64,000 bases of DNA from Candidatus Bathyarchaeota archaeon (GTDB taxonomy: Archaea > Thermoproteota > Bathyarchaeia > TCS64), in NCBI GenBank assembly GCA_018396695.1, contig JAGTQU010000004.1, positions 12,357-76,356 on the forward strand. The letters run 5' to 3'. The notes beneath the pieces were generated by a model. That model ran no database searches and was not told the origin of the DNA. It saw only the letters and a program-made list of their open reading frames with translations. How positions within the stretch are numbered: the first letter of the stretch is position 1; each line of letters starts with the position of its first letter. The position numbers and the translations under genes are program-made. Below, piece by piece: positions 2,937-22,236 of the stretch.

Positions 2937-2986
2937 AACATTTACCAGTCTAAAATGGTTCAACCTAGCTTTAGGAGGGGATACTC

Positions 2987-3826: not shown

Positions 3827-3884
3827 AACGATTGTTCTAAACTGTAGTATTATAGGATTTGACTGCTGAGTTGAATAGACGGCT

Positions 3885-4367: not shown

Positions 4368-4402
4368 TCTTCAATTTCAAGTTTTTCTATTATTAGATCA
4401 TC

Positions 4403-5134: not shown

Positions 5135-5165
5135 AAACAGTCTAGATAGAGACGTCTACGCATGT

Positions 5166-5705: not shown

Positions 5706-5819
5706 TTTAAAACTCTGAGAAAGGCCCTTATATTGTCTATTGCAATTTGGATTCTCAGATAACCTAAATCATAAGTTGAAAATTAATTCTTTGATGGCAT
5801 AATTAACGATGTTAAAAGT

Positions 5820-7097: not shown

Positions 7098-7163
7098 TCT
7101 TTAAATTACCCCTTCTTTAGTATTCGCTTATGATGCTCATTGATTTATAAGGGTTGATGAAGT

Positions 7164-8825
7164 CTGAAACGCTCCAGCTTTTTCTGGTGGCTAACTCCCA
7201 TAACTGGAGGAATAATAACAGGGGTTGCAGCCTCCGTCATAAACCATGTAATATTTAGAGGGTGGAGCGCCTTCAGCGAAGACGCTATTAAAACACCCAC
7301 TTTATACTTCATCTTCTCAATAACCGGATTAGCTCTCTCATATTTTCTCATTCACCTCCTAGCTTGGTATCGAACCCCGAAAAGCAGTTTCCATACTATT
7401 CTAGAATCCTACCATCTCACCCCCTATGGAATAACCTTGAAAGAATCCCTCGTAAAAACTGCTTCCGCAGTATCGACCGCGGTCTTCGGAGGTTCATCTG
7501 GTCCTGAAGGGGCTTCAGCGATTCTAGGTGGAGGTCTACTCGTTTGGGCTTCCAAGATCTTTAAATCAAAGATCGAGCCTCGCAAGGCTTTATTAATTGG
7601 AGTAGCTGCAGGGATATCCGCCACTTTTAAGACTCCTCTAGCGGGAGCTTTGTTCGCGTTAGAGCTTCCTTATAGGAGAGACATAGAGATCGAACCATTC
7701 ATAAACGCGGTCCTAGCTTCTTCTTCTGCCTATCTAGTCTCCGTGGTGCTCAATTCCCCTCCCCTTCTAAATATACATCTCGAGGTAATCGAGCCTCCTT
7801 TATTTATCCTTCCCGTCTCAATGGTTTTCGGCTTCGTTACCGGAGGCGTTGTTTATCTGTTTACCAATGCATACAGGTTAGGCGAGACTTCCTCCAAGAA
7901 GATGCTTTCGAGGGGCGGATACCCCTTCATGATTTTAATCGGAGGAACTATCTTAGGCGTCATAGGCTTTCTCGATCCCAATTCGATGGGTCCAGGACAC
8001 CAACTAATAACGTTTTTAGGTAATGCTTCGTTCACGTCTCTAATTCTGATCCTCCTCTTAAAACCTATCTGTACAATAGTCACGATGAACTTTGGAGGTT
8101 CCGGAGGGCTATTATACCAGACAATAATTATTGGCGGAGCATGGGGTGCCTTAGTAAGCTCGATTTTTGCACCTCAACTTCTTCCATTGTTCATATTGAT
8201 GGGTATGTCTTCTTTCTCCTCAGGCGTCCATAAAACCATATTGGCACCCATAATATTCATTGCTGAAGCCTTTGGAACAGAGTCCATGATACCCGTTATC
8301 CTTGCCACCGTAATCTGCTACTTTATAGTAAGCTCAACAATATTCTATCCTGTCCAGCCTTTAACGAAGACTGTTGAGGAGGAACTTGCTTTAGAGCGGT
8401 TCTATTATAAAGTGATACGAGCAAAACCAAAAGAGCTTGACAAAATCAAAGTCTCAGATGTTATGACTCCAAATCCTATTCGCCTTAGATCCGAGATCAC
8501 CGTAAAGGAAGCTTTTGAGGAGTTTTCAAAGACATCTTTCAGAATTATGCCAGTTGTTGATGAATATAGCAAACTTATAGGGTATGTGAAGCTCGAGGAG
8601 TTAGCACACCTTTCAATGGTATCTTTTGATAAACGCATAGATGAAGTCAGCCTCCATAAGCCTTTGACTTTAGAAAAGGATGAAAAAATTAGAGGAGTGA
8701 TTGAAAAAATGATAGAAAACTCTATTGATCACGCTTTCGTTATAGATGATCAGCATCAACTCATTGGAATAGTCTCAGACATAGACTTAGTCAGGATTCT
8801 GCTACGATACTATACTAACTTATAA
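7164..8825 (+). CDS. ClC-family chloride channel/transporter with C-terminal CBS pair; start extended upstream of the ORF track call (7437)
   Basis: GPEGA gating motif, FKTPLAGALFALE and two CBS domains; frame is open from 7161 and encodes ClC-like helices B-C, but has no ATG/GTG/TTG before 7437 (CTG at 7164). Confidence 0.85.
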   Translation: MKRSSFFWWLTPITGGIITGVAASVINHVIFRGWSAFSEDAIKTPTLYFIFSITGLALSYFLIHLLAWYRTPKSSFHTILESYHLTPYGITLKESLVKTASAVSTAVFGGSSGPEGASAILGGGLLVWASKIFKSKIEPRKALLIGVAAGISATFKTPLAGALFALELPYRRDIEIEPFINAVLASSSAYLVSVVLNSPPLLNIHLEVIEPPLFILPVSMVFGFVTGGVVYLFTNAYRLGETSSKKMLSRGGYPFMILIGGTILGVIGFLDPNSMGPGHQLITFLGNASFTSLILILLLKPICTIVTMNFGGSGGLLYQTIIIGGAWGALVSSIFAPQLLPLFILMGMSSFSSGVHKTILAPIIFIAEAFGTESMIPVILATVICYFIVSSTIFYPVQPLTKTVEEELALERFYYKVIRAKPKELDKIKVSDVMTPNPIRLRSEITVKEAFEEFSKTSFRIMPVVDEYSKLIGYVKLEELAHLSMVSFDKRIDEVSLHKPLTLEKDEKIRGVIEKMIENSIDHAFVIDDQHQLIGIVSDIDLVRILLRYYTNL

Positions 8826-8836
8826 AAAGGATTTAA

Positions 8837-9863
8837 CTCGTCACATTCAGAAAAGACCATCCTGAACCAGTTGAAGCAGGGCTAAAATATTTTGTGATGG
8901 GCGCCTAGCTTAACGATCATCTTCTTCGGAATGGCGTTTCTCTATGGAATGGCTGGAACCGTTAACTTCGCATAAGTATCAGCCGTAATCCGCGGTCAAC
9001 CGTTAAATCTCTGGCTACTCTTAGTCTTCACAACATTTTTGATAGGTTTCGGAATAAAAACCGCGGTCGTCTCATTACATATTTGGTTGCCTGATGCGCA
9101 TCCTGAGGCTCCAAGCTCTATCAGCGCCATGCTTTCAGGTTTGCTGATAGAAACTGGTCTCTACGCTTTAACGAGGGTTTTCTTCATAACCTTTGAACCC
9201 TCAATATTCCAGTCAACTATCGCTATTTTAGCAGCTTTAACCATGACCTTTACGAATATACTGGCTATTCTACAGAAAGATATTAAAAGAATGCTTGCCT
9301 ACTCCAGCATCTCTCAAATCGGTTACATGCTTGTGGGTCTCTCTTCTGGAAGAGTTTACGGGATCTTAGGAATGCTTTTACATGTTTTTAATCACTCTCT
9401 TATGAAGAGGCTTGCCTTCCTGAGCTCGGGTTCCATAGTCCACATGACTGGGACGAGGGACATAAATAAGCTGAAAGGTATAGGGCAGATGATGCCGTAT
9501 ACAACTTTAAGCCTCTTCATATCTTTCCTAGGGCTCGGAGGGGTACCTACGACTAACGGGTTTGTAAGTAATTCATACTCTTCGGATCATCCGCCGAGGT
9601 TCGTAACTGGTGGCTTCTAATCCTAGGTGTTCTGAATAGCGCGTTCTCGATGGGTTACTATCTCCGCTTCATGAAAACCCTTATCACCGAGTCATCTGAT
9701 GAGGTTAAAAATGTTAAGGAAGCTTCCAAGTTGATGGTCTTGGTATCCCTTATCATGGCTACTCTTCGGAATCTGGCCTGAACCGATATTGATTCATGCT
9801 GAACGCGCGTCTAATGCCCTTGTAAATGGGTTAAAAAGTTATGTTCGAGAGGCATTTTCTTGA
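8837..9863 (+). pseudogene. nuoN: Decayed complex I subunit NuoN-like gene, 5'-truncated
   Basis: EAGLKYFVMGA, HIWLPDAHPEAP, KRMLAYSSISQIGY and NSAFSMGYYLR motifs; TAG at 8906, frameshift near 8910, TAA at 8973, frameshifts near 9570 and 9765. Confidence 0.88.
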
Positions 9864-9880
9864 ACTTTAAACGTAAATCC

Positions 9881-9888
9881 TTTATATG
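9881..9888 (+). promoter_or_regulatory. Candidate TATA box for nuoL-M-M
   Basis: TTTATATG about 45 nt upstream of the nuoL TTG, followed by purine-rich GAGAGG before the start. Confidence 0.4.
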
Positions 9889-9928
9889 AATTAGAAAAGT
9901 TAAAGGAGATATCTGAGAGGTCGATCTG

Positions 9929-12229
9929 TTGACACCCCTAGAAGTCATTCTCGAGGCTCCAGGAGCATGGTTCAGCTGGATTATACCAATCATCGGTGCA
10001 CTGCTCATGCCTCTTTTAGGACGGATAAGTAACAGGGTTCGAGACTATGCTGCTGTTTTATTCGCCCTTGGAGCAGTAGTTTCAACAGCTACCCTGATCC
10101 CCAACCTCTTCTCAGGAGAGTATCCAGGTGATATTAAGATAGCGACTTGGATTGAGCTCCCTGGAGGGCATCCTATAGAAGTGGGCGTTCTAGTCGATCC
10201 TCTAAGCATATTAATATGCAATGTTGTAGCCTTCATTGCATTTTTGATCGTGGTTTACTCTATAGGCTACATGCATGGAGACCCCAATCTTACAAGATAC
10301 TGGTTCTTCTTCCTATTCTTTATAGGGAATATGCTTCTCCTAGTTCTATCCGACAACCTCCTTCAACTTCTTGTAGGCTGGGAAGGGGTGGGATTATGCA
10401 GCTATGGTCTTATAGGATATTACTACAGGGATGAGAAAGAGAGATGGCTCGGAGGGCCTCCGCCAACGAAGATGTACCCTCCCTCCCATGCTGGCATGAA
10501 AGCCTTCGTTGTGACGGGGATAGGCGACGTATTCCTCCTAGCTGCCATATTCATAATCTTCAACTATGCTGGAACCTTGAATTTTGTTGAGCTCATAGAG
10601 AAGGCGCCAGAATGGGTTGGGGCTATCTCAGCTATCCCAGGACTCTTATCAATGACGGCGATCTTTTTCCTAGGCGGTCCGATAGGTAAATCCGCTCAAT
10701 TTCCGCTCCATGAATGGTTACCTGAAGCCATGGCTGGCCCAACCTCAGTTTCTGCCTTGATACATGCTGCAACGATGGTTAAGGCAGGAGTCTATCTAGT
10801 TGCTAGAATATCCCCAATATTCTACATTGGAGCCTATAGTCTTCATATCGAGGAGGCAACAGTCTACTTCATAGCCATCGCAAGCATAGGGGCTTTCACA
10901 TCTTTTCTAGCAGCCTCACAGGCTATGGTCGCCTTGGAGCTCAAGAAGGTCTTGGCCTACTCAACCGTCAGCCAAATAGGCTACATGATGCTTGGCTTAG
11001 GCGTGTCAGGGCTCAGCGAAGGAGCTTACGTAGCCGGTCTCACTGGAGGAGTATTCCACCTGGTCAGCCACGCCCTGTTCAAGGCCGCCCTTTTCCTCTG
11101 CGCTGGCTCAGTCATACACACCGTTGAGACTATCTACATGTCGAATATGGGCGGACTGAAGAGGTACATGCCTATAACCCACATCTTAATGCTATTGGCG
11201 ACGCTCTCGCTAGCGGGCATCCCACCCCTGAGCGGCTTCTGGAGCAAGGACTCCATCTTCTTGGCATCCCTAACTGCAGGGACACCGTTGGCTCTAACGC
11301 TCCTCGCAGTGGCAGTCATAACAGCCGCTATGACCTTGTTTTACAGCATACGTTACATTAGCATGACCTTCTATGGGCCTTCGAGTAAATTCATCCAGAA
11401 TCTAGAACATGGAGGGCACGAAGAAAAAGAGCCTGGTGAGAGAAGCATCACTGGTCAGCACGGGCCCTCAACCTCAGGAGGTGATCATGGAGGATCTTTA
11501 ATAAAAAAGGAAATACAAGATGCTGAAAGTGTAGAACACCATGCACATCCAGTTCACCATATCCACGAAGCCAGTCCCGTTATGTGGGTTCCCTACGCGA
11601 TATTAGTCATTCTAGTGTTGGCTGTGGGCATCCTAGGGCTTGTAGGATTGTTCGCTCCTCGCTTCTCTCCCGAGATGTTTATCGAGAAGCAGTTTGAGAT
11701 GATGCTTGAGCATATGGAGATCCCAGTCCATATGGAGCATGTCGAGGTCTCAACTAAAATTATGGCTGTTAGCCTCTCTGCGGCCGCGTTGCTCATGGGC
11801 GGCATCTTCGGCTGGGTTTTCTACATAGCGCGAAAGATTGACTCCTGGTTATTCGTATCCAGGTCTCCTATCTTGAAAGGCGTTCACACTTTCTTATGGA
11901 ACAGGTGGTACATGAACCCCTCATACTACCGAGTGTTTGTGGATGGGTTGCTCTGGATGAAACAGCTGCTGTTTAATTGGGTTGAGACGAAGGTTATTGA
12001 TAGGATTAGCGGAGCGGTGGCAAGCGCCTTCGAAGCCGCGAGCAATCTACTATACGGAGTATTTGAAATACATGGCATGGAAAGCATCATTAATCAAGGT
12101 GTCCCCTCTGCGGTCACTGCCATTTATCATAAGGTTAAAAGAGTTCAGACAGGTTTGCTATCTTACAACATCGTTTATCTGGTCATACTCATGATCATAC
12201 TCCTGATTGGAATGTTATGGATGATGTGA
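9929..12229 (+). CDS. nuoL: NuoL/MrpA-like antiporter subunit with extended lateral helix
   Basis: GWEGVGLCSY, GKSAQFPLHEWLPEAMAGPTSVSALIHAATMV, HALFKA, GFWSKD and C-terminal QTG-TM16. Confidence 0.93.
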   Translation: MTPLEVILEAPGAWFSWIIPIIGALLMPLLGRISNRVRDYAAVLFALGAVVSTATLIPNLFSGEYPGDIKIATWIELPGGHPIEVGVLVDPLSILICNVVAFIAFLIVVYSIGYMHGDPNLTRYWFFFLFFIGNMLLLVLSDNLLQLLVGWEGVGLCSYGLIGYYYRDEKERWLGGPPPTKMYPPSHAGMKAFVVTGIGDVFLLAAIFIIFNYAGTLNFVELIEKAPEWVGAISAIPGLLSMTAIFFLGGPIGKSAQFPLHEWLPEAMAGPTSVSALIHAATMVKAGVYLVARISPIFYIGAYSLHIEEATVYFIAIASIGAFTSFLAASQAMVALELKKVLAYSTVSQIGYMMLGLGVSGLSEGAYVAGLTGGVFHLVSHALFKAALFLCAGSVIHTVETIYMSNMGGLKRYMPITHILMLLATLSLAGIPPLSGFWSKDSIFLASLTAGTPLALTLLAVAVITAAMTLFYSIRYISMTFYGPSSKFIQNLEHGGHEEKEPGERSITGQHGPSTSGGDHGGSLIKKEIQDAESVEHHAHPVHHIHEASPVMWVPYAILVILVLAVGILGLVGLFAPRFSPEMFIEKQFEMMLEHMEIPVHMEHVEVSTKIMAVSLSAAALLMGGIFGWVFYIARKIDSWLFVSRSPILKGVHTFLWNRWYMNPSYYRVFVDGLLWMKQLLFNWVETKVIDRISGAVASAFEAASNLLYGVFEIHGMESIINQGVPSAVTAIYHKVKRVQTGLLSYNIVYLVILMIILLIGMLWMM

Positions 12230-12235
12230 TGAAAT

Positions 12236-13717
12236 ATGTACGGACTAACTTGGTTAGCTCTCTTGGCTCCGGCCATATCAATGCCTATTGTCTACACCCT
12301 CGGACGTAAGCTTGGGAAAAACGTGGGATGGGTGGCGCTCATTCCCCTTTCCCTAAGTTCCCTCTTCTTCATTTACCTGATACCGGGTATTAGTAATACC
12401 TTTCTTGAGGAGTATATCGAGTGGCTGCCGGAGATCAGGTTCGGGCTTTTAGTAGATAGCCTCAGCCTACCTATCGTACTAACAGTAGCCCTCCTCTCCA
12501 CGATAATAGTCGTCTACTCCATTCCTTACATGGAGCACTCGATCCATGAACAGTATCATGGCGAGAACAAGAAAGCGCATGCAACATACTACGCTCTTTA
12601 CCTCGCTTACGCTACCAGTATGATGGGTGTTGTACTCTCGACAAATCTTTTCCAATTCTATCTCTTTTTCGAGCTTATGATAGTCCCCTCTTGGGCCATG
12701 ATAAACATATACGGGACGGGAGAGCGGGAGAAGATAGCTCTAATGTACCTGCTCTGGTCGATAGTTGGTGCCGTGCTCTTTGTCACGGGAGTTTTTACAG
12801 CTTACGCGACGGTGCACAGCTTTGAGATCTCGGATCTCGTCAAGCTTCAGGGAACACCAACAGCTGGCTTTATAGTTGTTATGATGCTCCTTGGCTTCTC
12901 CGTCAAACTGGCGACCTTTGGTCTACACATATGGTTGCCCTACGCTCACGCCGAGGCCCCCACGCCTATAAGTGCCCTCCTTAGCCCCGCGATGATAGGT
13001 CTGGCAGCCTACGGGATAGTTCGGTTTCTCGTCCCCATCCGCGGTGTCCTAGAAAGCGCAACGGTCTTGACCATGTCTTGGGGGCTAGTGACTATGCTCT
13101 ATGGCGGACTGATGGTGATGGCGCAGAATGATATTAAGCGTATGCTCGCGTATTCCAGCATTAGCCAGATGGGATACATATTCATTGGCATCGCGAGCGT
13201 CACCCCGCTAGGAGTTGCAGGGTCAATGCTCCACTACATTAGCCACGGGCTAGGGAAGGCTGTTCTATTCCTTACAGCTGGTACTATAATGCATCAAAGT
13301 GGTCACAGAGATATAAGCTCCATGGGTGGTCTTGCTGCCAAGATGCCGATATCAGCGATAGCTTTTCTAATAGGTGCCATGAACATATCCGGTATTCCCC
13401 CTACCATTGGATTTGTATCCAAGTTTTTCATCTACACCGGGGCATTTAGCCGAGGCCTACTTTCACCATCCATTGAGCTAGTGATAGCTATGGTAGCCAT
13501 CGTTTCGACAGCCCTCACAGTAGGATATACCATGTGGAACATGCGACGCATCTTCTATGGTCCCTTTCCTGAGCACTTGAAGGGGGTGAAAGAGGCCCCT
13601 GCGCTGATGACAGTACCAATGATGATCCTCTGTTTCCTCTCGATCTTACTAGGAATTTACCCTGGGCAGGTTCTAGACCCTTTAATAGAGGCGGTTAAGC
13701 AAATGATCAGTATTTAA
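12236..13717 (+). CDS. nuoM: NuoM-like antiporter subunit (copy 1)
   Basis: FYLFFEL, VKLATFGLHIWLPYAHAEAPTP and KRMLAYSSISQMGY motifs. Confidence 0.88.
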   Translation: MYGLTWLALLAPAISMPIVYTLGRKLGKNVGWVALIPLSLSSLFFIYLIPGISNTFLEEYIEWLPEIRFGLLVDSLSLPIVLTVALLSTIIVVYSIPYMEHSIHEQYHGENKKAHATYYALYLAYATSMMGVVLSTNLFQFYLFFELMIVPSWAMINIYGTGEREKIALMYLLWSIVGAVLFVTGVFTAYATVHSFEISDLVKLQGTPTAGFIVVMMLLGFSVKLATFGLHIWLPYAHAEAPTPISALLSPAMIGLAAYGIVRFLVPIRGVLESATVLTMSWGLVTMLYGGLMVMAQNDIKRMLAYSSISQMGYIFIGIASVTPLGVAGSMLHYISHGLGKAVLFLTAGTIMHQSGHRDISSMGGLAAKMPISAIAFLIGAMNISGIPPTIGFVSKFFIYTGAFSRGLLSPSIELVIAMVAIVSTALTVGYTMWNMRRIFYGPFPEHLKGVKEAPALMTVPMMILCFLSILLGIYPGQVLDPLIEAVKQMISI

Positions 13718-13718
13718 C

Positions 13719-15224
13719 ATGGTGAAAAATATGACCGGTAATATTCTGCTCTTGATGATCATGGTAACGATGGGGTCTTCCCCCATAATATACCTTTTAG
13801 GCAGAAGGATCGGAAAGATGGTCGGATGGCTATCAGTGGCGATCTTGATGTCCGTGACCGTTATATCCATCTTCTTAATGCCCATGGTGATGGAGCAAAG
13901 GATTATCGAAGAATACATGTGGACACTCCCCCCTGTAGAGTTCAAGTTCGGCCTTCTAGGTGACGGGTTGAGCCTCCCTATGCTCTTCACTTTGATATTT
14001 GTATTCTCCTTCGCCGCTGTTTACTCACTTACGTATATGGAACGGAGGATGAGAGAAAAGGACATCGAGGAAAGTAATGGGAAGTACGCCATGTTTTACA
14101 CCTTCTTCGTTCTCTATTCGGGTAGCGTAGCAGGTGCCATACTATCCACAAACATGATCCAGTACTACCTGTTCTTCGAGCTGTCCCTTGTATTCTCATG
14201 GCTACTTGTTCTGATATTTGGATATGGGAATCGTGAGAGGACATCCCTTTTGTACTTCCTGTGGACTCATGTCGGCGGGGGGTTCCTGCTGATAGGGATC
14301 CTAAGCTCCTTTTGGTCTATAGGAAGCTTCGAGATCGCTGACTTATCGAAGATAACAAACAGTTCCACAGGGTTCTGGATAGGCATAGCCATCACCCTTG
14401 GCCTCCTCGTTAAGATAGGAGGCCTCGGTTTTCATGGCTGGCTTCCAGACACATATTCCGAATCGCCAGCCCCCGTGAGTGCAGTGCTGGGGGCGACCTC
14501 GGTTCTACTCGTTACCTACTCGCTAGCTAGATTGGTCCTCCCCTTTAAGGAAGTATTGTATGGAGTTAGCTGCTGGCTTGAGCTCTGGGCGCTCCTCACA
14601 ATCCTATACGCTGGAATTATGGCGCTTGTTCAGCGAGATACGAAGCGCCTTGTCGCCTATCTTAGTATGAGCCAGATGAATTACTGTGTTCTTGGAGTCT
14701 TCACCTACGTCGAATATGGCGTTCTAGGTGCGCTCTCGTATAGCATAAGTCACGGGCTTGCAATAGCCCTCCTGTTTCTCGTAGCTGGTGCAATTCTCTA
14801 CGGAACTGGAACAAGGGACATGGGCAAGCTGGGAGGATTAGCTGAAAAGATGCCTGCTGCGATAATTGCAAGTTTGGTGGGCTTCCTAACTATAGGAGGC
14901 GTACCGCCTGCCGTCGGATTCAAGTCCAAATTCATCCTTCTCACAGGTGCCTTCTTGAGGGGTTTTCAAAACTTTGGCCTCGAGCTAATAATAGCTATTA
15001 TAGCCGGGACCCTTGCAACCGTAATAACTCTGGCCTATGAGTTTCGAGCAATATGGCGAGTCTACTACGGTAAACTACCCTCGGACATTCAGAAGATAAA
15101 AAATATTCCAGCCACTATAGCGATATCTCTTTTAATGCTGAGCGCCTTGTCGATAATATTCGGAATTTGGCCCGCTCTAATAACCAATCCACTAGAAGAG
15201 TTCATTAGACACGTATTTCATTAA
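13719..15224 (+). CDS. nuoM: NuoM-like antiporter subunit (copy 2)
   Basis: YYLFFEL, VKIGGLGFHGWLPD and KRLVAYLSMSQMNY motifs; paralog of the upstream copy. Confidence 0.85.
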   Translation: MVKNMTGNILLLMIMVTMGSSPIIYLLGRRIGKMVGWLSVAILMSVTVISIFLMPMVMEQRIIEEYMWTLPPVEFKFGLLGDGLSLPMLFTLIFVFSFAAVYSLTYMERRMREKDIEESNGKYAMFYTFFVLYSGSVAGAILSTNMIQYYLFFELSLVFSWLLVLIFGYGNRERTSLLYFLWTHVGGGFLLIGILSSFWSIGSFEIADLSKITNSSTGFWIGIAITLGLLVKIGGLGFHGWLPDTYSESPAPVSAVLGATSVLLVTYSLARLVLPFKEVLYGVSCWLELWALLTILYAGIMALVQRDTKRLVAYLSMSQMNYCVLGVFTYVEYGVLGALSYSISHGLAIALLFLVAGAILYGTGTRDMGKLGGLAEKMPAAIIASLVGFLTIGGVPPAVGFKSKFILLTGAFLRGFQNFGLELIIAIIAGTLATVITLAYEFRAIWRVYYGKLPSDIQKIKNIPATIAISLLMLSALSIIFGIWPALITNPLEEFIRHVFH

Positions 15225-15454
15225 AAATATGTTTGGATAATGATTAGAACTCTTCAGGGGGACGCTAAATTTCCAAGATTGTAAAGGTTAAGAGTATATA
15301 CAATGCTTATCAGATACTCATGGCCATTTAAAACCTTTCGCACTTCCACTATCAAGGCATATGTAGTAGACATAGAATATAGAGAGTTGATATTAGTTCC
15401 TTCATTGTAAATCTACACAAGTTTTTTAAAATCGAGGATATGAAGTTTTAGGAA

Positions 15455-15772
15455 ATGAGTATTGCAGTTATAGGTTCGCCACCATTTGTATCATGTTTCG
15501 AGATGATCGGAGCTGTTAGCTTCGAAGCCAACGGCTCGGAAGCTGTCACTAGAACCCTAAAACGTTTAATCGAGGAAGAAAACTTTAAGCTCATCATTAT
15601 TCCAGAGAGGTTTGCTAAGGAGACCCTGCCCTTGAGGGAGCAGGTGATGAGGAAGGGAGATATAACCCCTGTATTCACATTAATCCCTGATCTCACGATG
15701 GAGACTGGGATGCGGATAGAGGAGCTCCAAGAGATCGTTTCTCTTGCGATTGGAGCAAAATTAGAGTTGTGA
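15455..15772 (+). CDS. atpF: A/V-type ATP synthase subunit F
   Basis: IAVIG...GFxxIG-like N-terminus, about 105 aa, first gene of the operon. Confidence 0.8.
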   Translation: MSIAVIGSPPFVSCFEMIGAVSFEANGSEAVTRTLKRLIEEENFKLIIIPERFAKETLPLREQVMRKGDITPVFTLIPDLTMETGMRIEELQEIVSLAIGAKLEL

Positions 15773-15782
15773 AGGATGAGAT

Positions 15783-16109
15783 ATGGAGAGAGTGTTATCT
15801 ATCGGGGAACGGCTTCAGAGGCTACTTGAAGAAGCGGAAACGGAGTCGAAGAGGAAGATCGCTGAAGCTAGAAGAAAAGCAGACGAGATGGTCGCCAGAG
15901 CTAGGGATGATGCAGAGAACAGGCGGATCATGGCTCAAAGAGGAGATGGAATCGAGGATCTCATTAAAACTGAAGAGTATAAGGCTAAACAAGAGGCGGC
16001 TAGGATCCTTGAGAAATACAAAGAGAGGGCGGAGGCTGTAAAGAATGTTCCAAGAGAAAAAATTGAGGAGGCGATCAGCTTCGTACTAAGTGAGGTGCTT
16101 CCGAAATGA
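15783..16109 (+). CDS. atpH: A/V-type ATP synthase subunit H/G (peripheral stalk)
   Basis: Charged coiled coil EAETESKRKIAEARRKADEMVARA; operon position. Confidence 0.72.
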   Translation: MERVLSIGERLQRLLEEAETESKRKIAEARRKADEMVARARDDAENRRIMAQRGDGIEDLIKTEEYKAKQEAARILEKYKERAEAVKNVPREKIEEAISFVLSEVLPK

Positions 16110-16750
16110 GTTCCCCCTCTATAGAGTTAGAAGCTCAGCTCATAGAGAGAACTGTGGCGAAGAGGAATGAAACCTTATTGAGTGCGGAAGAGACTGCCAA
16201 GAAGATCTTGCAAGCTGCTGAAAGAGAGCGCGAGAGGATTAAAGCGGAATCAGAGAAACAGATTCTCAGCATTGTCTCATCCGAACTTCGAGCCGTTAGA
16301 GACAGGATTATTGGTAAAGCGAATCTTGAAGGAAGAAGAACCCTGATGAGTGCTAGAGAAGAAGTCCTCTCAGCCTTATACGATGAGGCGATGTTTCGCC
16401 TAGAGGCTATAGCTGAAGGACGAGATACGAAAATAAGATATGGAGAGGTCCTGAAGAAGCTGCTTATCGAAGCCATCTCAGCTATAGGCGGAGAAGAATT
16501 CATTGTATCTGTAAATAAAAGAGACTATGCTTTCCTAAAGGAGAACTTGGCTGATATCAAGGAAGAGATGAAAGAATACGTAGGGGATGTAATCATCAGG
16601 CTTGACGCTAAAACCATCGACGCTATCGGAGGCGTAATCATACGAAACCCTGAAGAGACAAAAATATATTACAACACCCTTGACGCTAGGCTTTTGAAAG
16701 CTAGGAGAAAGACCGAGTCCGAAGTCGCTAAAATTTTGGGAGTGATTTAA
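16106..16750 (+). CDS. atpE: A/V-type ATP synthase subunit E
   Basis: N-terminal coiled coil plus DAIGGVII...YNTLDARL C-terminal domain. Confidence 0.88.
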   Translation: MSSPSIELEAQLIERTVAKRNETLLSAEETAKKILQAAERERERIKAESEKQILSIVSSELRAVRDRIIGKANLEGRRTLMSAREEVLSALYDEAMFRLEAIAEGRDTKIRYGEVLKKLLIEAISAIGGEEFIVSVNKRDYAFLKENLADIKEEMKEYVGDVIIRLDAKTIDAIGGVIIRNPEETKIYYNTLDARLLKARRKTESEVAKILGVI

Positions 16751-16752
16751 AG

Positions 16753-18519
16753 ATGTCGCTGAAAGGATCAATAGATAGAATCAACGGGTCCCTCGTCGTT
16801 GCTAAATTCGAAGCAGAGCCGAAGATCGGGGACCTCGTTGAGATCGGTAGCCTTAGACTTATGGGGGAGATAGTTCGCTTAAGCGAAGATAAAGCGTATA
16901 TTCAATGCTACGAAGCTACGAGCAGCCTGAAGCCAGGTGAGCCTGTCTTAGATTCGGGGAAGCCGCTAGTCGCTGAGCTAGGTCCTGGAGTAATGGGTAC
17001 TATAGTCGACGGCATCGAACGTTCAGAATCGAAGCTATGGGAGTTGACAGGCCCCTTCGTTTCAAGAGGCACGAATATCGTTCCACTCGACAGGACAAAA
17101 AAATGGGCGTTTGAGCCTAAGGTCATGGTAGGGGGCAAGGTGCGTGGAGGAGACATCATAGGCGTCGTCCAAGAGACAGAGTCTTTCCAGCATAGGGTTC
17201 TAGTGCCCCCTGAACTTGAGGGTACTATAACTTCTATTGAAAAGGGAGACTTCACAGTTGAAGATGTTGTCGGCACCGTTGAGACTAGAACAGGATCCAT
17301 AGGCCTCCGAATGATGCAGACTTGGCCCGTGAGGCGTCCTAGACCTGTTAAGGAGAGGCTTCCATTAATGATGCCTCTGATGACTGGGCAGAGAGTCATA
17401 GACACGTTCTTCCCTGTTGCGAAAGGAGGGGCAGCCTGCATTCCAGGAGGCTTCGGCACTGGAAAAACCGTGATGCTGCAGCAGGTTAGCAAATGGGCCG
17501 ATGCTGACATAATAATCCTCATAGGATGCGGAGAAAGGGGTAACGAGATGGCTGATGTTGTCGCGCATTTCCCTGAGATATCTGATCCTAGGAGTGGACG
17601 CCTCTTGATAGAGAGGACAATTATTGTCGCTAACGTAAGTAATATGCCTGTCTCAGCTAGGGAGGCGAGCATCTACATGGGGATCACTCTTGGAGAATAT
17701 TACCGCGACATGGGATACGATGTTGCCGTGATGGCTGACTCGACATCGAGATGGGCTGAAGCCCTCAGAGACATGTCTGGTCGCCTTGAGGAGATCCCAG
17801 CTGAAAGCGGCTATCCTGCCTACCTTGCAGATAGGATTGCGGAGATCTATGAGCGGGCGGGTAGGGTTGTAACTCTCGGATCAGATCAACGTATCGGAAG
17901 TCTAACCCTTCTTGGAGCCGTTTCTCCTCCCGGCGGAGACTTCAGTGAGCCTGTTACGACGCACACTCTGAGGTTCGTCGGAACCTTCTGGGCTCTTGAC
18001 AGCGAGCTGGCTTTCAGGAGGCACTTTCCGGCAATAAACTGGCTCAGAAGCTTCACCCGGTATATGACTGTCGCATCGAAATGGTGGTCGAAGTATGAAC
18101 GTAACTGGGAGCAGATTAGGGCTAAAGCACTTGAGCTTTTGGAGGAAGCTGCCGAGATAGAGGAGACTGCCAGAATCATAGGAGAGAAGGCTATGCCTGA
18201 TGAGCAGAGGCTCATCCTGCTTCTGGCGGAGCTTTTGAGGGAAGGCTTCCTAGTTCAGAGCGCATTCCACGAGGTTGACAGGTACTGTGAGGCTGAGAAG
18301 CAGGCTGCCCTCCTCAAAGTCATCATCGACTTCTATAACCTCGCTGAGCCTATAATAAGGCAAGGGATACCTATTGAGAAGATTAGAGAGCTTGGCATAG
18401 TCTCAGAGCTTATGAGGCTTAAGGAGAGGAAAGGTTTGCAACCTATTGATGCGGCTAGAATAGAGATGAGGAAGCAGATTAGTCAACTCGCAGAGACTTA
18501 CGAGGTGAAGGTTAGATGA
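16753..18519 (+). CDS. atpA: A/V-type ATP synthase catalytic subunit A
   Basis: P-loop [16 protein letters not shown] and [11 protein letters not shown]; no intein. Confidence 0.97.
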
Positions 18520-19913
18520 CGATTGAAGAAGCAGGGGTAGTCTATAAGACGACTACCGAGATTAGAGGACCAATCCTATTTATAGAGAACATAAAAGATG
18601 TTGCCTACGACGAAGTCGTAAGGATAACTACCCCTACAGGTTATGAAATATCCGGCTCGGTACTAGATGTCTCTAAGGATTACGCTATGGTCCAGGTTTT
18701 TGGTGAAACTAGTGGCATGGATCTTAATGTTAGCGTTCGTTTCACAGGCGAGACTTTGAGGATTCCAGTATCAGATGAGTTGATAGGCCGGGTGTTCAGC
18801 GGCAGCCTTGCCCCTCTGGATGGGCTTCCACGCCCTCTAAGCACCGATCAGAGGGATGTTAACGGGGGGACTATTAATCCAGCTGCTAGGGATGTTCCAA
18901 GCGAGTTCATCCAGACGGGATTGTCGGCAATCGACGGTATGAATAGCCTTGTGAGGGGTCAGAAACTCCCGATCTTCAGCGAGTCGGGTCTGCCGCACAA
19001 CCAAGTCGCCGCTCAGATAGCCAGACAGGCGACAATCCCAGGAAAGGAAGAGGAGTTCGCCCTAGTCTTCGCTGCAATGGGGATAAAAAACGAGGAGGCT
19101 GAATTCTTCAAAGAGGAGTTCGAGAAGACAGGTGCAATCAGCAAGTCTGTTATGATACTTAACCTAGCTGACGATCCTCCGATAGAGCGCATAGTCACTC
19201 CTCGGATAGCCCAGACGATAGCAGAGTATTTGGCTTTCGACCTGGATATGCACGTCCTCACGATTATGACAGACATGACAAACTATGCTGAGGCTTTACG
19301 AAGCATTTCCATAGCCCGCGAGGAGATACCTACGAGGAAGGGTTACCCGGGATACCTATATAGTGACTTAGCCACAATCTACGAACGGGCTGGAAGAATA
19401 AAGGGTAAAAAAGGCTCAGTCACTCTAATGCCTATTCTTTCGATGCCTGGAGGAGACATCACGCATCCAGTACCAGATCTCACAGGATACATAACTGAGG
19501 GTCAGCTCATCTTACAAAGGGAGCTTGCTCTCAGAGGCATCTATCCTCCGATGAATGTTCTGCCGAGCCTCTCTAGGCTTATGAAGGACGGCATAGGGGA
19601 GAAGACTACTAGAAAGGATCATAGCGACGTCTCGAACCAGCTATACATGGCTTATGCTGAGGGTACGCGAGCCAGAGGACTTGTACGGATTGTAGGTGTT
19701 GTCGGTCTAAGTGAGAGGGAGAGGACTTGGCTCGAGTTCGCAGACCAGTTTGAGCAGAAGTTTGTGAACCAGGGGGTTTACGAAAACAGGACAATTGAGC
19801 AGACTCTGGATATTGCGTGGGATCTCCTAGCTATGCTTCCTGAGGAGGATCTTATCAGGGTTAGAGAAGCCTACATCAAAGAGTTTCATCCAAAGTATAG
19901 ACGAGCAGGATAA
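18516..19913 (+). CDS. atpB: A/V-type ATP synthase subunit B
   Basis: [20 protein letters not shown] and [14 protein letters not shown] motifs. Confidence 0.97.
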
Positions 19914-19915
19914 AA

Positions 19916-20536
19916 TTGTCCTCTATGAGCGGTGTCAGACCCACAAAGGGCTACCTCATGGATCTCAAGCGGAGGATAAGCTTCATAGAGAGGGGTACCG
20001 AGTTTCTCAAGCTCAAAAGGGATCATCTAGCTAAGGAGCTGAGCACCTCGCTTGAAGTTTTGAGAGGGAGGCGTAAGTTGCTTTTACAGAATCTGAGGGA
20101 TGCCTATGGGGCGTTGACGGCAGCATATCTCTCTCTAGGACCAACCGAGGTTAAGAGCCAGGTGAGAGCTGTTAAAAAAAGGCTTGAACTTGAGGTTCTG
20201 CCAAGGAGTGTCATGGGTGTTAGATATCCTTATGTCAAGTTTCTGTCTAAACCTCAAGTCGGCGCTGAGCTTGATGTAACGTTGAGCCATGCGGCAAAGA
20301 AGGTTCAAGAGATCCTTGAGGAGCTGATCCAGACTGCAGAGTTTGAGGCTAGAGTGGAAAGGATTGCTGATGAGCTTGGGAAGACTAATCGAAAAGTAAA
20401 CGCGCTTGAGAACACAATCATTCCAAGCTATAAGCAAGTCATAAAATTCATTGAAGATAAGCTTGATGAGGAGAGCCTTGAGGAGCTCGTGAGGGTGAAA
20501 CTCATAGGAGGTGCGTTGGCACGGCGGCGAGCGTAA
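19916..20536 (+). CDS. atpD: A/V-type ATP synthase subunit D
   Basis: RPTKGYL...LKLKRD and KTNRKVNALE motifs. Confidence 0.93.
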   Translation: MSSMSGVRPTKGYLMDLKRRISFIERGTEFLKLKRDHLAKELSTSLEVLRGRRKLLLQNLRDAYGALTAAYLSLGPTEVKSQVRAVKKRLELEVLPRSVMGVRYPYVKFLSKPQVGAELDVTLSHAAKKVQEILEELIQTAEFEARVERIADELGKTNRKVNALENTIIPSYKQVIKFIEDKLDEESLEELVRVKLIGGALARRRA

Positions 20537-20538
20537 GA

Positions 20539-21567
20539 TTGAAGTATGCCTCAGCGGTGGTGAGATGTCATGCTTTAATCTCCGAGCTTCTATCCCCTGA
20601 ACAGATGCGTCGACTAGCCGAGACTGAGAATCTCAACGCGTTTATAGCCCGGATATCTGAGACGCCTTACGGGGAGATCTCTATAGAGATTTCTGGAGAT
20701 GCTTCAATTGCTCTCGAGAAGGTGTTTTATCGCAAGTTCATAGAGAGAATCTCGAGAATCATCGATATAACCCCGAAGAAAATCGCTAGTTTTCTACAGG
20801 CCTATTACTACATGAGGTTTGAGGTTCTCAATCTTAAGCGTACACTCCGAGGAAGCTTCGGCGGCACCCCCTCTCAACAGATCCTTGAATCTCTCATACC
20901 GATTGAACCCTACCATGTAAAGGATTTCAAGGATCTTGTAGAACAGGAGACGATTGAGGAGATAATGAAACATCTCCATGGCACACCATATTCAAACCTT
21001 TCTGAAAGCCTCCCATTATATAAAGAGACGGAGGAGTTATGGCCCTTTGAGCTCAGTCTTAACAATATCTATGCCTTGACTATCCTCAAGTTGGTTGAAA
21101 GGCTCCCGTCTCCAGATAGGGCTCTCGTAAAACGGATAGTAGAGCTTGAGACCGATATCGAGAATCTTCTTATAGCTTTGAAGCAGCGAGAAATGGTTCA
21201 AGACACTCGAAGGATTCAGAGTCTATTTCCTACGACTTTCAAATTTAACATTGAAAAGATGAAGGAGTTCATCGAGTCTAAGGATATTAGACAATTTATC
21301 ATCGGATTAGGCGAACCATACACAGAGATTCTGTCCCCGATATATGAGGAGGATGTCTCTTTTGTTCGAAGCCGATTAAGACAACAGATATATAGAACGA
21401 TGAAGCGAGGGCGCTCAATGAACGACTTTGGATTTAACGTGATAATGGCCTACCTCGTTTTCTGCGAGATCGAGAAGGATGACCTAGTCGGGATGTCTTG
21501 GAGCAAAGCTCAAGGAATATCTCCTGAGAACATTCTCAAATATCTTGTTATACCCCATTTCATATGA
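20539..21567 (+). CDS. atpC: A/V-type ATP synthase subunit C (d/AC39)
   Basis: 342 aa helical protein with ETPYG, FEVLNLKRTLR and EIEKDDL motifs. Confidence 0.85.
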   Translation: MKYASAVVRCHALISELLSPEQMRRLAETENLNAFIARISETPYGEISIEISGDASIALEKVFYRKFIERISRIIDITPKKIASFLQAYYYMRFEVLNLKRTLRGSFGGTPSQQILESLIPIEPYHVKDFKDLVEQETIEEIMKHLHGTPYSNLSESLPLYKETEELWPFELSLNNIYALTILKLVERLPSPDRALVKRIVELETDIENLLIALKQREMVQDTRRIQSLFPTTFKFNIEKMKEFIESKDIRQFIIGLGEPYTEILSPIYEEDVSFVRSRLRQQIYRTMKRGRSMNDFGFNVIMAYLVFCEIEKDDLVGMSWSKAQGISPENILKYLVIPHFI

Positions 21568-21664: not shown

Positions 21665-22096
21665 TTATCCACTCACCATCAATATAGCTACAATCAACCC
21701 GTAGATGGCGAGTCCTTCTCCAAGAGCTACGAAAAGTAGAGACCAGATCGAGAGTTCAGGCTTCTGAGTTAACATCTCTGAGCCTGCCTTCGCCGCCACC
21801 ATGATGCACAGGGCGGCTGCGAAGCCTGCACCGATCATGGTCAATGCTCCTACCAAAGGACGCCATGCTTCGGTTGGAATCACTTCCGCTTCACCTCCGG
21901 CTACTAATAATATAATGAAAAAGATATTCAGAACCAGCATGAAAGAACCGATAACGTTGAGGAGTACCCCCCATATCGTGCTCCTTTTTTCAACCTCTGC
22001 TGAAGCATTGATTGTTGATCCATGGATGACAAGCCAAGCTGATGCTATTATGCTTGCAGTAATGGCTATTGCTCCAGGTATAAAGTCGACAGCCAT
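21665..22096 (-). CDS. atpK: A/V-type ATP synthase proteolipid subunit K/c with two extra N-terminal TM helices
   Basis: KPELSIWSLLFVALGEGLAIYGLIVAIL contains the ion-binding Glu. Confidence 0.88.
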   Translation of the reverse strand: MAVDFIPGAIAITASIIASAWLVIHGSTINASAEVEKRSTIWGVLLNVIGSFMLVLNIFFIILLVAGGEAEVIPTEAWRPLVGALTMIGAGFAAALCIMVAAKAGSEMLTQKPELSIWSLLFVALGEGLAIYGLIVAILMVSG

Positions 22097-22236
22097 GTCA
22101 ATTACCTCCTATGATTTTATTAGATTTGAAAATCTTTGTCAATGTTCATTTGCCTCCTTGTTCTCCTTAGATGCATTTCTTTGAGCATATATATTTTTCT
22201 AAATTTAAAATTTGGATATTGGATAAATGCACCAAT

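What the first reader, a model, noticed from the sequence alone, without database searches (positions are those of the whole stretch)
8837..15224. Orphaned but intact NuoL-M-M antiporter module: complex I arm lacking its N subunit and its electron-transfer half
Seen: nuoL and two nuoM copies are full-length, with key residues retained (NuoL TM5 Glu, TM7 Lys, TM11 His/Lys, TM12 KD). The preceding nuoN carries at least five lesions and begins only about 12 nt after the ClC stop. No nuoA-D/H-K genes are in the window, and a TATA-like box precedes nuoL. Established: NuoN links L/M to the K/J/A/H core, and L/M/N descend from Mrp antiporter subunits. Inference: after a rearrangement removed the rest of the operon, L-M-M stayed under selection. 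It may act as a stand-alone Mrp-like ion antiporter beside the ATP synthase, or assemble in trans with a differently wired redox module (Fpo/Ech/Mbh-like) encoded elsewhere.
Basis: partly seen in the sequence, partly recalled or inferred. Interest (0 to 1): 0.75.

Follow-up and report, generated by a model that had tools for sequence, protein, structure and literature searches.

The report
Split complex I arm, not orphaned
An archaeal (Bathyarchaeia) genome keeps three intact ion-pumping subunits of a complex-I-like enzyme beside its ATP synthase genes, next to a dead copy of a fourth; the missing core genes, including an intact fourth subunit, very probably lie elsewhere in the same genome, so this is most likely a split operon rather than an orphaned machine.

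Summary
There is a 5'-truncated, multiply disrupted nuoN relic at 8837-9863, starting 12 nt after a ClC/CBS gene. It is followed by intact nuoL, nuoM and nuoM and then an A-type ATP synthase operon. No nuoA-K gene is in the window.

The 'orphan' reading does not hold. The window comes from a hot-spring Bathyarchaeia MAG, conspecific with GCA_018397005.1. A NuoD (MBS7619095) and a full-length NuoN (MBS7619101) lie exactly six genes apart, as in the canonical D-H-I-J-J-K-N order. They fall in the same accession block as this locus's NuoL (MBS7619866), and identical copies occur in a second MAG.

Relatives show the ancestral order nuoA-K-N-L-M(-M)-atp. At least three other species carry the same split: nuoA-K-N in one place and L-M(-M)-atp in another. 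One of them keeps a 65-nt nuoN stub.

L, M1 and M2 show no sign of relaxed selection. The relic does.

Best reading: L-M-M is the distal membrane arm of a split, '2M'-type Fpo-like complex, expressed from its own conserved BRE/TATA element.

Caveats: the public scaffold has a 15-N gap exactly at the ClC/nuoN junction. The DNA around the second operon could not be fetched.

The parts
7161..8825 (+). ClC chloride channel with two CBS domains; left flank of the junction. The first canonical start is TTG at 7437, but the ClC domain match begins upstream of it.
   Evidence: Pfam Voltage_CLC + CBS. Reading frame is open from 7161. The ATG at 7157 is out of frame.
8826..8836 (.). 11-nt junction between the ClC stop codon and the first base with nuoN homology. 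In the public scaffold L081 a 15-N gap lies at 8801-8815.
8837..9863 (+). nuoN pseudogene. It lacks residues 1-160, including the TM5 Glu. It has a frameshift at 8906, TAA at 8973-8975, a 1-nt deletion at 9570-9571 and a frameshift at 9759-9766. The longest surviving ORF is 9039-9620 (193 aa).
   Evidence: Three-frame translation and tblastn against intact NuoN of relatives. 6 private changes at 93 otherwise invariant columns. GC is 0.437 against 0.47-0.49 for L/M/M.
9873..9886 (+). BRE/TATA-like element GTAAATCCTTTATA, 43 nt upstream of nuoL.
   Evidence: Nearly the same motif sits in the nuoN-nuoL spacer of L001, L003 and L070, which have an intact nuoN. Similar A/T boxes occur in L002, L012, L017, L027 and L035.
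9929..12229 (+). nuoL (766 aa), intact, with a long C-terminal lateral-helix region of the length class found in all two-M loci.
12236..13717 (+). nuoM copy 1 (493 aa), intact.
13719..15224 (+). nuoM copy 2 (501 aa), intact.
15455..21567 (+). A/V-type ATP synthase genes: F, G/H-like, E, A, B, D and C(AC39). Linked to nuoL-M(-M) in nearly all relatives whose contigs extend downstream.
   Evidence: Pfam; synteny
21665..24429 (-). ATP synthase c subunit (21665-22096) and I/a subunit (22237-24429), convergent with the rest of the operon.
   Evidence: Pfam ATP-synt_C and V_ATPase_I

Best explanation
The locus is the distal half of the membrane arm (NuoL-NuoM-NuoM) of a complex-I-like, Fpo-like enzyme of the '2M' kind, in a hot-spring member of Bathyarchaeia.

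Shown:
- In relatives these genes close a single cluster, nuoA-B-C-D-H-I-J-J-K-N-L-M(-M), that runs into the A-type ATP synthase operon.
- In this lineage everything upstream of residue 161 of nuoN is absent and unrelated genes (a ClC channel gene) abut the relic; I read this as a deletion. The rest of that nuoN has decayed.
- L-M-M have stayed intact.

Inferred, strongly:
- The same genome keeps a separate nuo...D-H-I-J-J-K-N operon on another contig, with an intact NuoN.

Inferred:
- L-M-M are made from their own BRE/TATA promoter upstream of nuoL.
- They dock in trans onto that core as K-N-M-M-L. The result is an ordinary redox-driven ion pump, probably ferredoxin-dependent, whose genes are simply split between two places.
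- The pseudogene is the relic of a second, now redundant, set of proximal subunits.
For: 1. Ancestral arrangement. L003 and about 30 other loci show nuoA..K-N-L-M(-M)-atp. In NJ trees the window's NuoL, AtpA and AtpB are sister to the L001/L003/L070 group.

2. A second operon in the same genome.
- The NuoL of GCA_018397005.1 is MBS7619866.
- NuoD P0132 is MBS7619095 and MBS7630018. NuoN P0399 (503 aa) is MBS7619101 and MBS7630024.
- The +6 offset equals D-H-I-J1-J2-K-N. It was calibrated on L001, where D is ..503, N is ..497 and L is ..496.
- The 771-number distance fits inside a MAG of about 1500 proteins.
- P0132 carries the search pattern SWGPQHPM, yet no species representative in genome contigs holds it. 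The same is true of the window's own species.

3. No second close NuoL. No NCBI-sourced NuoL of at least 58% identity sits on a 128,140-nt contig.

4. Selection.
- Private changes at otherwise invariant columns: L 0/158, M1 4/167, M2 2/178, against AtpA 4/271 and the relic 6/93.
- Window branches are not longer than those of L070: L 0.84, M1 0.64, M2 0.74.
- Four internal lesions in 1027 nt of relic predict about 21 in the 5289 nt of L-M-M. None is seen (P about 1e-9).

5. The same split elsewhere.
- L026+L102, L027+L096 and L035+L103 have nuoA-K-N with no L or M after it, and L-M(-M)-atp at another site.
- L026 keeps a 65-nt 3' stub of nuoN.

6. Own promoter. The BRE/TATA-like motif is conserved in the N-L spacer of relatives with an intact N.

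7. The lateral-helix region of NuoL is in the length class shared by all two-M loci.
Against: - The link between P0132/P0399 and the window's genome rests on accession numbering, on identical proteins in two MAGs, and on absence from the species collection. It does not rest on seeing the contig. The look-up of encoding contigs returned nothing for either protein.
- I could not see what follows NuoN in that operon. A divergent NuoL/NuoM (under 58% identity) there is not excluded.
- NuoN P0399 is only 56-62% identical to the relic. It is therefore not the partner that L-M-M originally sat next to, and docking is assumed rather than shown.
- nuoA, B, C, H, I, J and K of the second operon are inferred only from the six-gene spacing.
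- The public scaffold has a gap at the junction.
- There are no expression or protein data.
Confidence: 0.68

Rival explanations
1. Shared or exchangeable distal module. L-M-M is a plug-in unit kept beside the ATP synthase genes. It can serve more than one 'head'. Bathyarchaeia have two kinds: the type-1 nuoA-K-N operon and a divergent type-2 nuoB-C-D-H-I set. The window shows one head (with its J-K-N) lost and the module passed to the other.
For: - Many genomes carry a type-2 head + J-K-N-L-M-M-atp and, elsewhere, a type-1 nuoA-K-N; where the contig extends past N (L096, L102, L103, L109) no L or M follows it. Examples: L028+L095, L019+L106, L042+L097, L015+L115.
- Signature positions place the relic with type-2-linked NuoN (9 v 3; 20 v 4) and P0399 with type-1 NuoN.
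- L026 equals L028 minus the type-2 head and J-K-N.
Against: - The placement of the relic is on a long pseudogene branch with few informative sites.
- The window's NuoL is sister to that of L001/L003/L070, which are type-1 contiguous.
- Several type-1 contigs end at or inside nuoN, so 'no L or M' is not always shown.
- There is no biochemical evidence that one L-M-M set serves two heads.
Confidence: 0.12
2. True orphan. L-M-M work without any complex-I core, as a stand-alone Mrp-like cation/proton antiporter next to the ATP synthase.
For: - L, M1 and M2 are intact and conserved.
- The module always sits beside the atp genes.
- From my own knowledge, isolated NuoL has been reported to conduct cations, and NuoL/NuoN can partly replace MrpA/MrpD. 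I did not check these reports here.
Against: - NuoD and an intact NuoN are very probably in the same genome.
- No MrpB/C/E/F/G-like genes were found among the window ORFs scanned with Pfam.
- NuoL scores 310 bits against a 1104-bit cut-off for the best-matching MrpA model, and it passes the NuoL model.
- The NuoL lateral helix has the length needed to clamp a four-subunit arm. That has no obvious use in a free trimer.
Confidence: 0.05
3. Dying relic. The whole atp-linked complex is dispensable, and L-M-M are merely the part that has not yet picked up disabling mutations.
For: - One neighbour (nuoN) is already a pseudogene.
- The adjacent ClC gene also seems to have lost its start.
- The source paper reports genome reduction and lost fpo subunits in thermophilic MAGs (PMC8407382).
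Against: - Zero lesions in 5.3 kb, against four in 1 kb next door.
- No excess of changes at invariant sites and no branch lengthening.
- The same L-M(-M) retention is seen in three other species after loss of the upstream genes.
Confidence: 0.07
4. Assembly artefact. The ClC/nuoN adjacency is a scaffolding or gap-filling error, and the real genome has something else, perhaps the nuoA-K genes, upstream of the relic.
For: The public scaffold JAGTQW010000035 has 15 Ns at window 8801-8815. The bases just after the gap differ from the window, including the poly-A length.
Against: - Two assemblies, a 12.95-kb scaffold and an 81-kb contig that differ by SNPs and a 3-bp indel, give the same order.
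- Homology to nuoN starts in mid-gene, and the internal stops and frameshifts are identical in both. They are independent of the junction.
- The intact NuoD..N genes lie about 770 proteins away in the accession order.
Confidence: 0.06

Closest known systems
Fpo-like / 11-subunit complex-I-like enzyme of Bathyarchaeia (Nuo A,B,C,D,H,I,J,K,L,M,N without NuoEFG), described for the hot-spring MAG set that includes a conspecific MAG and, probably, this one (Qi et al. 2021, PMC8407382)
   Same: - Same subunit families and the same gene order in relatives.
- An extra fpoM copy is noted there for Family-5.
- That paper also notes clusters with rearranged or missing subunits.
   Different: Here the cluster is split. 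Only L-M-M remain at the ATP synthase locus, with a nuoN pseudogene. The D..N part is elsewhere. The paper does not describe this locus individually in the text or supplements I could read.
'2M' complex I with a second NuoM and a roughly 26-residue insertion in the NuoL lateral helix (Chadwick et al. 2018, cited in PMC9040806)
   Same: - Two tandem nuoM genes.
- A NuoL C-terminal region about 28 residues longer than the short class found in some one-M relatives.
   Different: - Archaeal, probably ferredoxin-dependent, and linked to an A-type ATP synthase operon.
- Gene order is N-L-M-M rather than L-M-M-N.
- Both M copies have Lys, not Glu, in TM12 and lack the TM8 Lys.
- The length classes also occur in loci with only one M, so the link between length and subunit number is not clean.
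Dispersed complex I / NDH-1 gene sets, for example cyanobacterial ndh genes scattered over several loci (my own knowledge, not checked here)
   Same: A single membrane complex is assembled from subunits encoded at separate loci, with the distal antiporter-like subunits encoded apart from the core.
   Different: Here the split is recent enough to leave a pseudogene at the breakpoint. It has arisen repeatedly within one archaeal class.
Mrp multisubunit cation/proton antiporter (MrpA-G; structures 6z16, 7qru, 7d3u)
   Same: NuoL, NuoM1 and NuoM2 are homologous to MrpA/MrpD.
   Different: - None of the Mrp-specific small subunits was found in the window.
- NuoL lacks the MrpA C-terminal domain and fails every MrpA model cut-off.

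Membership tests
Complex I / Fpo-like enzyme, subunit NuoL | Proton_antipo_N + Proton_antipo_M domains and a score above the curated NuoL model cut-off | tested here: met
   TIGR01974 502.5 bits v 407.5. Pfam PF00662 + PF00361.
Complex I / Fpo-like enzyme, subunit NuoL | Conserved channel residues (TM5 Glu, TM7 Lys, TM8 His, TM11 His/Lys, TM12 Lys-Asp) | tested here: met
   Alignment to 6hum_F. Same residue as the majority at every position in 74 relatives.
Complex I / Fpo-like enzyme, subunit NuoL | C-terminal lateral helix plus a last transmembrane anchor | tested here: inconclusive
   The WY motif (FLWNRWYMNPSYY) and a hydrophobic C-terminus are present, with 107 residues from the motif to the end. 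No structure was predicted.
Complex I / Fpo-like enzyme, subunit NuoM | Score above the curated NuoM model cut-off | tested here: inconclusive
   M1 308.5 v 263.8, met. M2 240.5 v 263.8, just below.
Complex I / Fpo-like enzyme, whole complex | Core subunits NuoA, B, C, D, H, I, J, K and N encoded in the same genome | tested here: inconclusive
   - Absent from the window.
- NuoD and NuoN were found six accession numbers apart in the same accession block and in a second MAG.
- The other seven subunits are inferred from the spacing. The contig could not be fetched.
Complex I / Fpo-like enzyme, whole complex | Physical assembly of L-M-M with the N/K/J core, and redox-driven ion pumping | not testable with these tools
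   The organism is uncultured. There are no expression or protein data.
2M complex I (Chadwick et al. 2018) | Two nuoM genes in the cluster | tested here: met
   12236-13717 and 13719-15224. Orthologous pairs occur in 17 related loci.
2M complex I (Chadwick et al. 2018) | Insertion of about one subunit width in the NuoL lateral helix | tested here: inconclusive
   The window (107) falls in the ~109 class shared by 20 of 21 two-M loci, against ~80 in the short class. Many one-M loci also have 109, 139 or 166.
Mrp antiporter | MrpA with a C-terminal MrpB-like domain, plus MrpB, C, E, F and G | tested here: not met
   MrpA models reach at most 310 bits v 1104. No Mrp small-subunit family was found among the window ORFs scanned.
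Energy-converting [NiFe] hydrogenase (Ech/Mbh/Hyf) as partner | A [NiFe] large subunit next to the antiporter-like subunits | tested here: not met
   - None is in the window.
- P0132 and the divergent type-2 large subunit of relatives both match NuoD/FpoD best (369 and 339 bits). They match hydrogenase models only weakly.
- HycI and HypD genes do occur nearby in relatives and in the window.

The most novel reading that the evidence does not exclude
In Bathyarchaeia the NuoL-NuoM(-NuoM) module is a semi-autonomous, separately promoted unit tied to the ATP synthase operon. It can be handed between, or shared by, two different complex-I-like heads: type-1 nuoA-K-N and a divergent type-2 nuoB-C-D-H-I with its own J-K-N. 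The window catches one such hand-over, with the discarded nuoN still visible. If so, the number of pumping subunits, and hence the ion/electron ratio, would be set by a mobile genetic module rather than by the core operon.
Probability: 0.2. Interest if true: 0.6.

Novelty: new member of a known kind. Interest (0 to 1): 0.3.

Why it matters
As a single locus it matters little.

It has some value as a dated snapshot. The pseudogene and its breakpoint show how a respiratory operon comes apart without loss of function. They also show that the distal antiporter module already had its own promoter before the split.

The wider pattern found along the way could inform how the stoichiometry of these pumps evolves in energy-limited archaea. 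That pattern has three parts: repeated loss of the proximal genes while L-M(-M) stay beside the ATP synthase genes; two kinds of head in one genome; and stepwise length classes of the NuoL lateral helix.

For annotators there is a practical warning. Counting fpo/nuo subunits per contig will misreport such genomes as lacking complex I or as having an incomplete one.

Tried and rejected
- Synteny on the left flank. I looked for the genes upstream of nuoA in relatives (L001, L002, L003, L006, L011, L044, L048) anywhere in the window by tblastx. There were no hits, so the event is not a simple deletion relative to those genomes.
- Fetching the contigs that encode P0132 and P0399, and the window's own NuoL. 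All were 'not on record'.
- A metagenome scan with P0399 to get the context of the second operon. Nothing was closer than 64%.
- Per-MAG nuo/fpo tables in the supplements of the source paper. Only per-family counts are given and no accession numbers are listed.
- Pairwise dN/dS. Not attempted, because the nearest intact relatives are about 30% diverged in protein (synonymous sites would be saturated). The conspecific assembly differs by one codon in L and none in M1 or M2. I used invariant-site and relative-rate tests instead.
- A recent duplicate of the relic as the source of the intact NuoN. Rejected: P0399 is only 56-62% identical to the relic.
- A hydrogenase identity for the divergent type-2 head. 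Rejected: it matches NuoD/B/H models best.
- The sigma-70 promoter and terminator scan. It is uninformative for an archaeon, and the counts were at chance level.
- A second near-match of the BRE/TATA motif at 8823-8836 on the minus strand. It is within chance expectation.

Full report
WHAT IS IN THE SEQUENCE

The region holds four adjacent members of the antiporter-like family (Pfam Proton_antipo_M) on the + strand.
- nuoL, 9929-12229 (766 aa), passes the curated NuoL model: TIGR01974 502.5 bits against 407.5.
- nuoM1, 12236-13717 (493 aa), passes the NuoM model: 308.5 against 263.8.
- nuoM2, 13719-15224 (501 aa), falls just below it at 240.5.
- Upstream of nuoL lies a broken fourth member.

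By three-frame translation and tblastn against intact NuoN of relatives, homology in the broken member starts at 8837. That is residue ~161 of ~505, 12 nt after the stop codon of a ClC/CBS channel gene (8823-8825). It continues to a stop at 9861-9863 through these lesions:
- a frameshift at 8906;
- an in-frame TAA at 8973-8975;
- a 1-nt deletion at 9570-9571;
- another frameshift at 9759-9766.

Downstream, from 15455, comes an A-type ATP synthase operon: F, G/H-like, E, A, B, D and C. The c and I subunits lie convergent on the other strand.

tblastn with nuoA, B, C, D, H, I, J and K from a relative finds nothing in the 64 kb. The rest of the window is ordinary archaeal housekeeping: TFB, ArgRS, AspRS, PolB, two thermosome subunits, NrdD and HypD.

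WHERE IT COMES FROM

NuoL is 99.9% identical to a protein of GCA_018397005.1, contig JAGTQW010000035 (12,950 nt). That contig is 99.7% identical to window 2972-15924.

The MAG belongs to the 35 hot-spring Bathyarchaeia MAGs of Qi et al. 2021 (PMC8407382). That paper describes 'fpo-like' clusters without FpoF/O, notes an extra fpoM copy in its Family-5, and notes clusters that have lost subunits. Two Family-5 MAGs have about 43% GC and different contiguity: QZM_B1_bin_55 and QZM_B4_bin_53. They fit the window's contig (81,016 nt) and the 12.95-kb scaffold. This assignment is my inference.

The two assemblies differ by scattered SNPs and a 3-bp indel. They are identical across the whole nuoN relic.

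There is one caveat. The public scaffold has 15 Ns at window 8801-8815, inside the last codons of the ClC gene, and the poly-A run after the gap differs in length. So the junction was an assembly break in one data set and is closed in the other.

THE ANCESTRAL ARRANGEMENT

A scan of species-representative genomes gave 80 loci with a related NuoL, nearly all from Bathyarchaeia. Mapping the window's proteins and the nuo genes of L003 onto them shows a conserved super-cluster: nuoA-B-C-D-H-I-J1-J2-K-N-L-M(-M), followed by atpF-...-atpC.

Seventeen loci have two M genes.

In neighbour-joining trees of NuoL, AtpA and AtpB, the window is sister to the group L001/L003/L070. That group has the contiguous two-M form. 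The window therefore descends from a contiguous cluster and has lost everything upstream of residue 161 of nuoN.

IS IT ORPHANED? VERY PROBABLY NOT

A search with NuoD of L070 found P0132 (371 aa, 81% identical). It carries two NCBI accessions, MBS7619095 and MBS7630018, on two contigs, the longer of 128,140 nt.

A search with NuoN of L070 found P0399. It is full length at 503 aa, with accessions MBS7619101 and MBS7630024 and the same two-contig and 128,140-nt signature.

In both MAGs NuoN is exactly six accession numbers after NuoD. That is the spacing of D-H-I-J1-J2-K-N. In L001 the same numbering gives D ..503, N ..497 and L ..496.

The NuoL of the 12.95-kb scaffold is MBS7619866. That is 771 numbers after this NuoD, in a MAG of roughly 1500 proteins.

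Further support:
- P0132 and P0399 are each about as far from the L070 group (81% and 64%) as the window's AtpA and NuoL are (81% and 71%).
- P0132 contains one of the peptide patterns used in the genome scan, yet no species representative carries it. The same holds for the window's own species.
- P0399 has no change at 87 otherwise invariant NuoN columns.

I could not fetch either contig, so the identity of the five genes in between is inferred from the spacing.

No NCBI-sourced NuoL with at least 58% identity to the window's sits on a contig of that size. The second operon therefore seems to lack a close NuoL of its own.

THE SAME SPLIT IN OTHER SPECIES

Three other genomes have nuoL-M(-M)-atp with no nuo gene for 7-10 kb upstream (L026, L027, L035). 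On another contig each has nuoA-...-K-N followed by 2-6 kb without L or M (L102, L096, L103).

In all three, the gene just upstream of nuoL is a HycI-type maturation protease.

L028, a close relative of L026, has an F420-dependent LLM oxidoreductase and HycI. These are followed by a divergently transcribed second kind of head ('type 2': NuoB/C/D/H/I only 30-45% identical to type 1, but best matching Nuo/Fpo models), and then J-J-K-N-L-M-M-atp.

L026 is the same minus that head and J-K-N. It still carries the last ~22 codons of nuoN directly in front of nuoL. That is an independent deletion with a breakpoint inside nuoN, sparing L-M-M, just as in the window.

SELECTION

Private substitutions at columns invariant in all relatives:

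| Protein | Private changes / invariant columns |
|---|---|
| NuoL | 0 / 158 |
| M1 | 4 / 167 (I>V, L>M, L>M, P>F) |
| M2 | 2 / 178 (F>Y, M>I) |
| AtpA | 4 / 271 |
| AtpB | 2 / 265 |
| nuoN relic | 6 / 93 |

The relic's value is the highest of 45 sequences. Its changes include P>S twice in the LPDAHPEAPSPIS motif, and G>R next to the TM11 lysine.

Three-point branch lengths of the window relative to L070 are 0.84 (L), 0.64 (M1) and 0.74 (M2), against 0.95 and 1.12 for AtpA and AtpB. There is no acceleration.

Four internal lesions in 1027 nt of relic would predict about 21 in the 5289 nt of L-M-M if these had been neutral for the same time. None is present (P about 1e-9).

The relic's GC (0.437) has fallen to the genome mean, while L, M1 and M2 are at 0.47-0.49. 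In relatives NuoN is as GC-rich as NuoL.

All family-conserved charged residues are kept.

EXPRESSION

The element GTAAATCCTTTATA lies at 9873-9886, 43 nt before the TTG start and followed by GGAG/GAGG. It recurs almost unchanged in the nuoN-nuoL spacer of L001, L003 and L070, where nuoN is intact. It recurs as a similar A/T box in L002, L012, L017, L027 and L035.

The distal genes thus seem to have had their own promoter before the split. That explains why losing the upstream genes need not silence them. This is inference from sequence; there are no transcript data.

WHICH nuoN DIED?

The relic is only 56-62% identical to P0399, so the intact gene is not a recent copy of it.

In an NJ tree, and at clade-diagnostic positions, the relic leans towards the NuoN of type-2-linked clusters (9 v 3, and 20 v 4). 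P0399 sits with type-1 NuoN.

This hints that the lineage once had two sets of proximal subunits and kept one. The relic is on a long branch, however, and its NuoL neighbour groups with type-1 contiguous clusters. I treat this as a lead, not a result.

HOW IT MOST LIKELY WORKS

Shown:
- the gene content;
- the lesions;
- the conserved synteny;
- the selection contrast;
- the recurrent split.

Strongly inferred:
- a nuoD...N operon elsewhere in the same genome.

Inferred:
- NuoL, M1 and M2 are made from their own promoter and join NuoN (P0399), K, J, A and H, giving a four-antiporter arm, N-M-M-L;
- the arm is clamped by the NuoL lateral helix, whose length (107 residues from the WY motif to the C-terminus) is that of all two-M loci and about 28 residues longer than the short class;
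- the enzyme would couple oxidation of a low-potential donor to ion export, feeding the adjacent ATP synthase. The source paper suggests ferredoxin, with quinone or HdrD-type acceptors unresolved.

COMPARISON AND VERDICT

This is a member of the known Bathyarchaeial Fpo-like / complex-I-like family, in the known '2M' style (Chadwick et al. 2018, as cited in PMC9040806), with its genes split between two loci. Split complex I gene sets are ordinary.

It is not an Mrp system. Among the window ORFs scanned there are no small Mrp subunits, and the MrpA models fail.

Interest is modest for the finding as stated. The residual interest lies in the repeated, breakpoint-in-nuoN loss of the proximal genes and in the possibility that L-M(-M) is a transferable module.

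Noticed in passing
window 7098-7440: The ClC gene has no canonical start where it should. The Pfam ClC match begins about 33 residues upstream of the TTG at 7437. The frame is open from 7161 for 92 codons with no ATG, GTG or TTG. An ATG at 7157 is one base out of frame. This suggests a 5' frameshift, a second damaged gene beside the nuoN relic, or a non-canonical start. The sequence is identical in both assemblies.
   Followed up: partly
L081 position 5827-5841 = window 8801-8815: The public scaffold JAGTQW010000035 has a 15-N gap exactly at the ClC/nuoN junction. The run of A after it is one base longer than in the window.
   Followed up: partly
NuoL of about 70 loci (e.g. L022, L025, L011, L010) and window 11900-12229: The distance from the conserved WY motif to the C-terminus of NuoL falls into discrete classes of about 80, 109, 139 and 166 residues, in steps of about 28-29. 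All but one of the two-M loci (20 of 21) are in the 109 class. Many loci with a single adjacent M are in the 109, 139 or even 166 class, as if further antiporter-like subunits were encoded elsewhere.
   Followed up: partly
L005, L014, L025, L028, L039, L043 and others, upstream of nuoJ: Bathyarchaeia have two kinds of complex-I-like head. Type 1 is co-directional nuoA-B-C-D-H-I. Type 2 is a divergently transcribed nuoB-C-D-H-I set only 30-45% identical to type 1. Many genomes carry both, with the type-1 operon ending at nuoN on a separate contig.
   Followed up: partly
L026 5988-6611, L027 8870-9409, L035 8889-9446, L028 329-1930: A HycI-type hydrogenase maturation protease (with an F420-dependent LLM oxidoreductase in L026 and L028) sits next to these clusters and directly upstream of nuoL in the split genomes. 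Yet the neighbouring large subunits look like NuoD, not [NiFe] hydrogenase.
   Followed up: partly
L026 6870-6934: About 65 nt directly upstream of nuoL still encode the last ~22 residues of NuoN (ASDASEALIENLEYVGAVLS). This is the scar of an independent deletion that removed the head and J-K-N.
   Followed up: yes
window 12236-15224 and orthologues: In both NuoM copies and all 17 orthologous pairs, the central TM8 lysine of canonical NuoM is absent (Gly in M1; Met or Leu in M2). TM12 carries Lys rather than Glu, so they resemble MrpD/NuoN more than textbook NuoM. NuoN of this family mostly has Glu at the TM8 position.
   Followed up: partly
window 11390-11600 (NuoL residues ~488-545): A His/Gly/Glu-rich low-complexity loop (…HGGHEEKEPGERSITGQHGPSTSGGDHGG…HHAHPVHHIHE…) sits between the last core helix and the C-terminal region of NuoL. 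It is poorly conserved in relatives; identity drops from 76% to 42% there in L048 and L072.
   Followed up: no
window 55452-56546 (-): HypD, a [NiFe]-hydrogenase maturation gene, is present although no hydrogenase gene is in the window. The genome presumably encodes a hydrogenase elsewhere.
   Followed up: no
window 46568-47758 (-): A single-subunit Na+/H+ exchanger (Pfam Na_H_Exchanger) is encoded in the same window. The cell therefore has a conventional cation/proton antiporter independent of L-M-M.
   Followed up: no
window 21665-24429 (-): The membrane subunits of the ATP synthase (c and I/a) are encoded convergently on the opposite strand from the other subunits, not inside the operon.
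   Followed up: no
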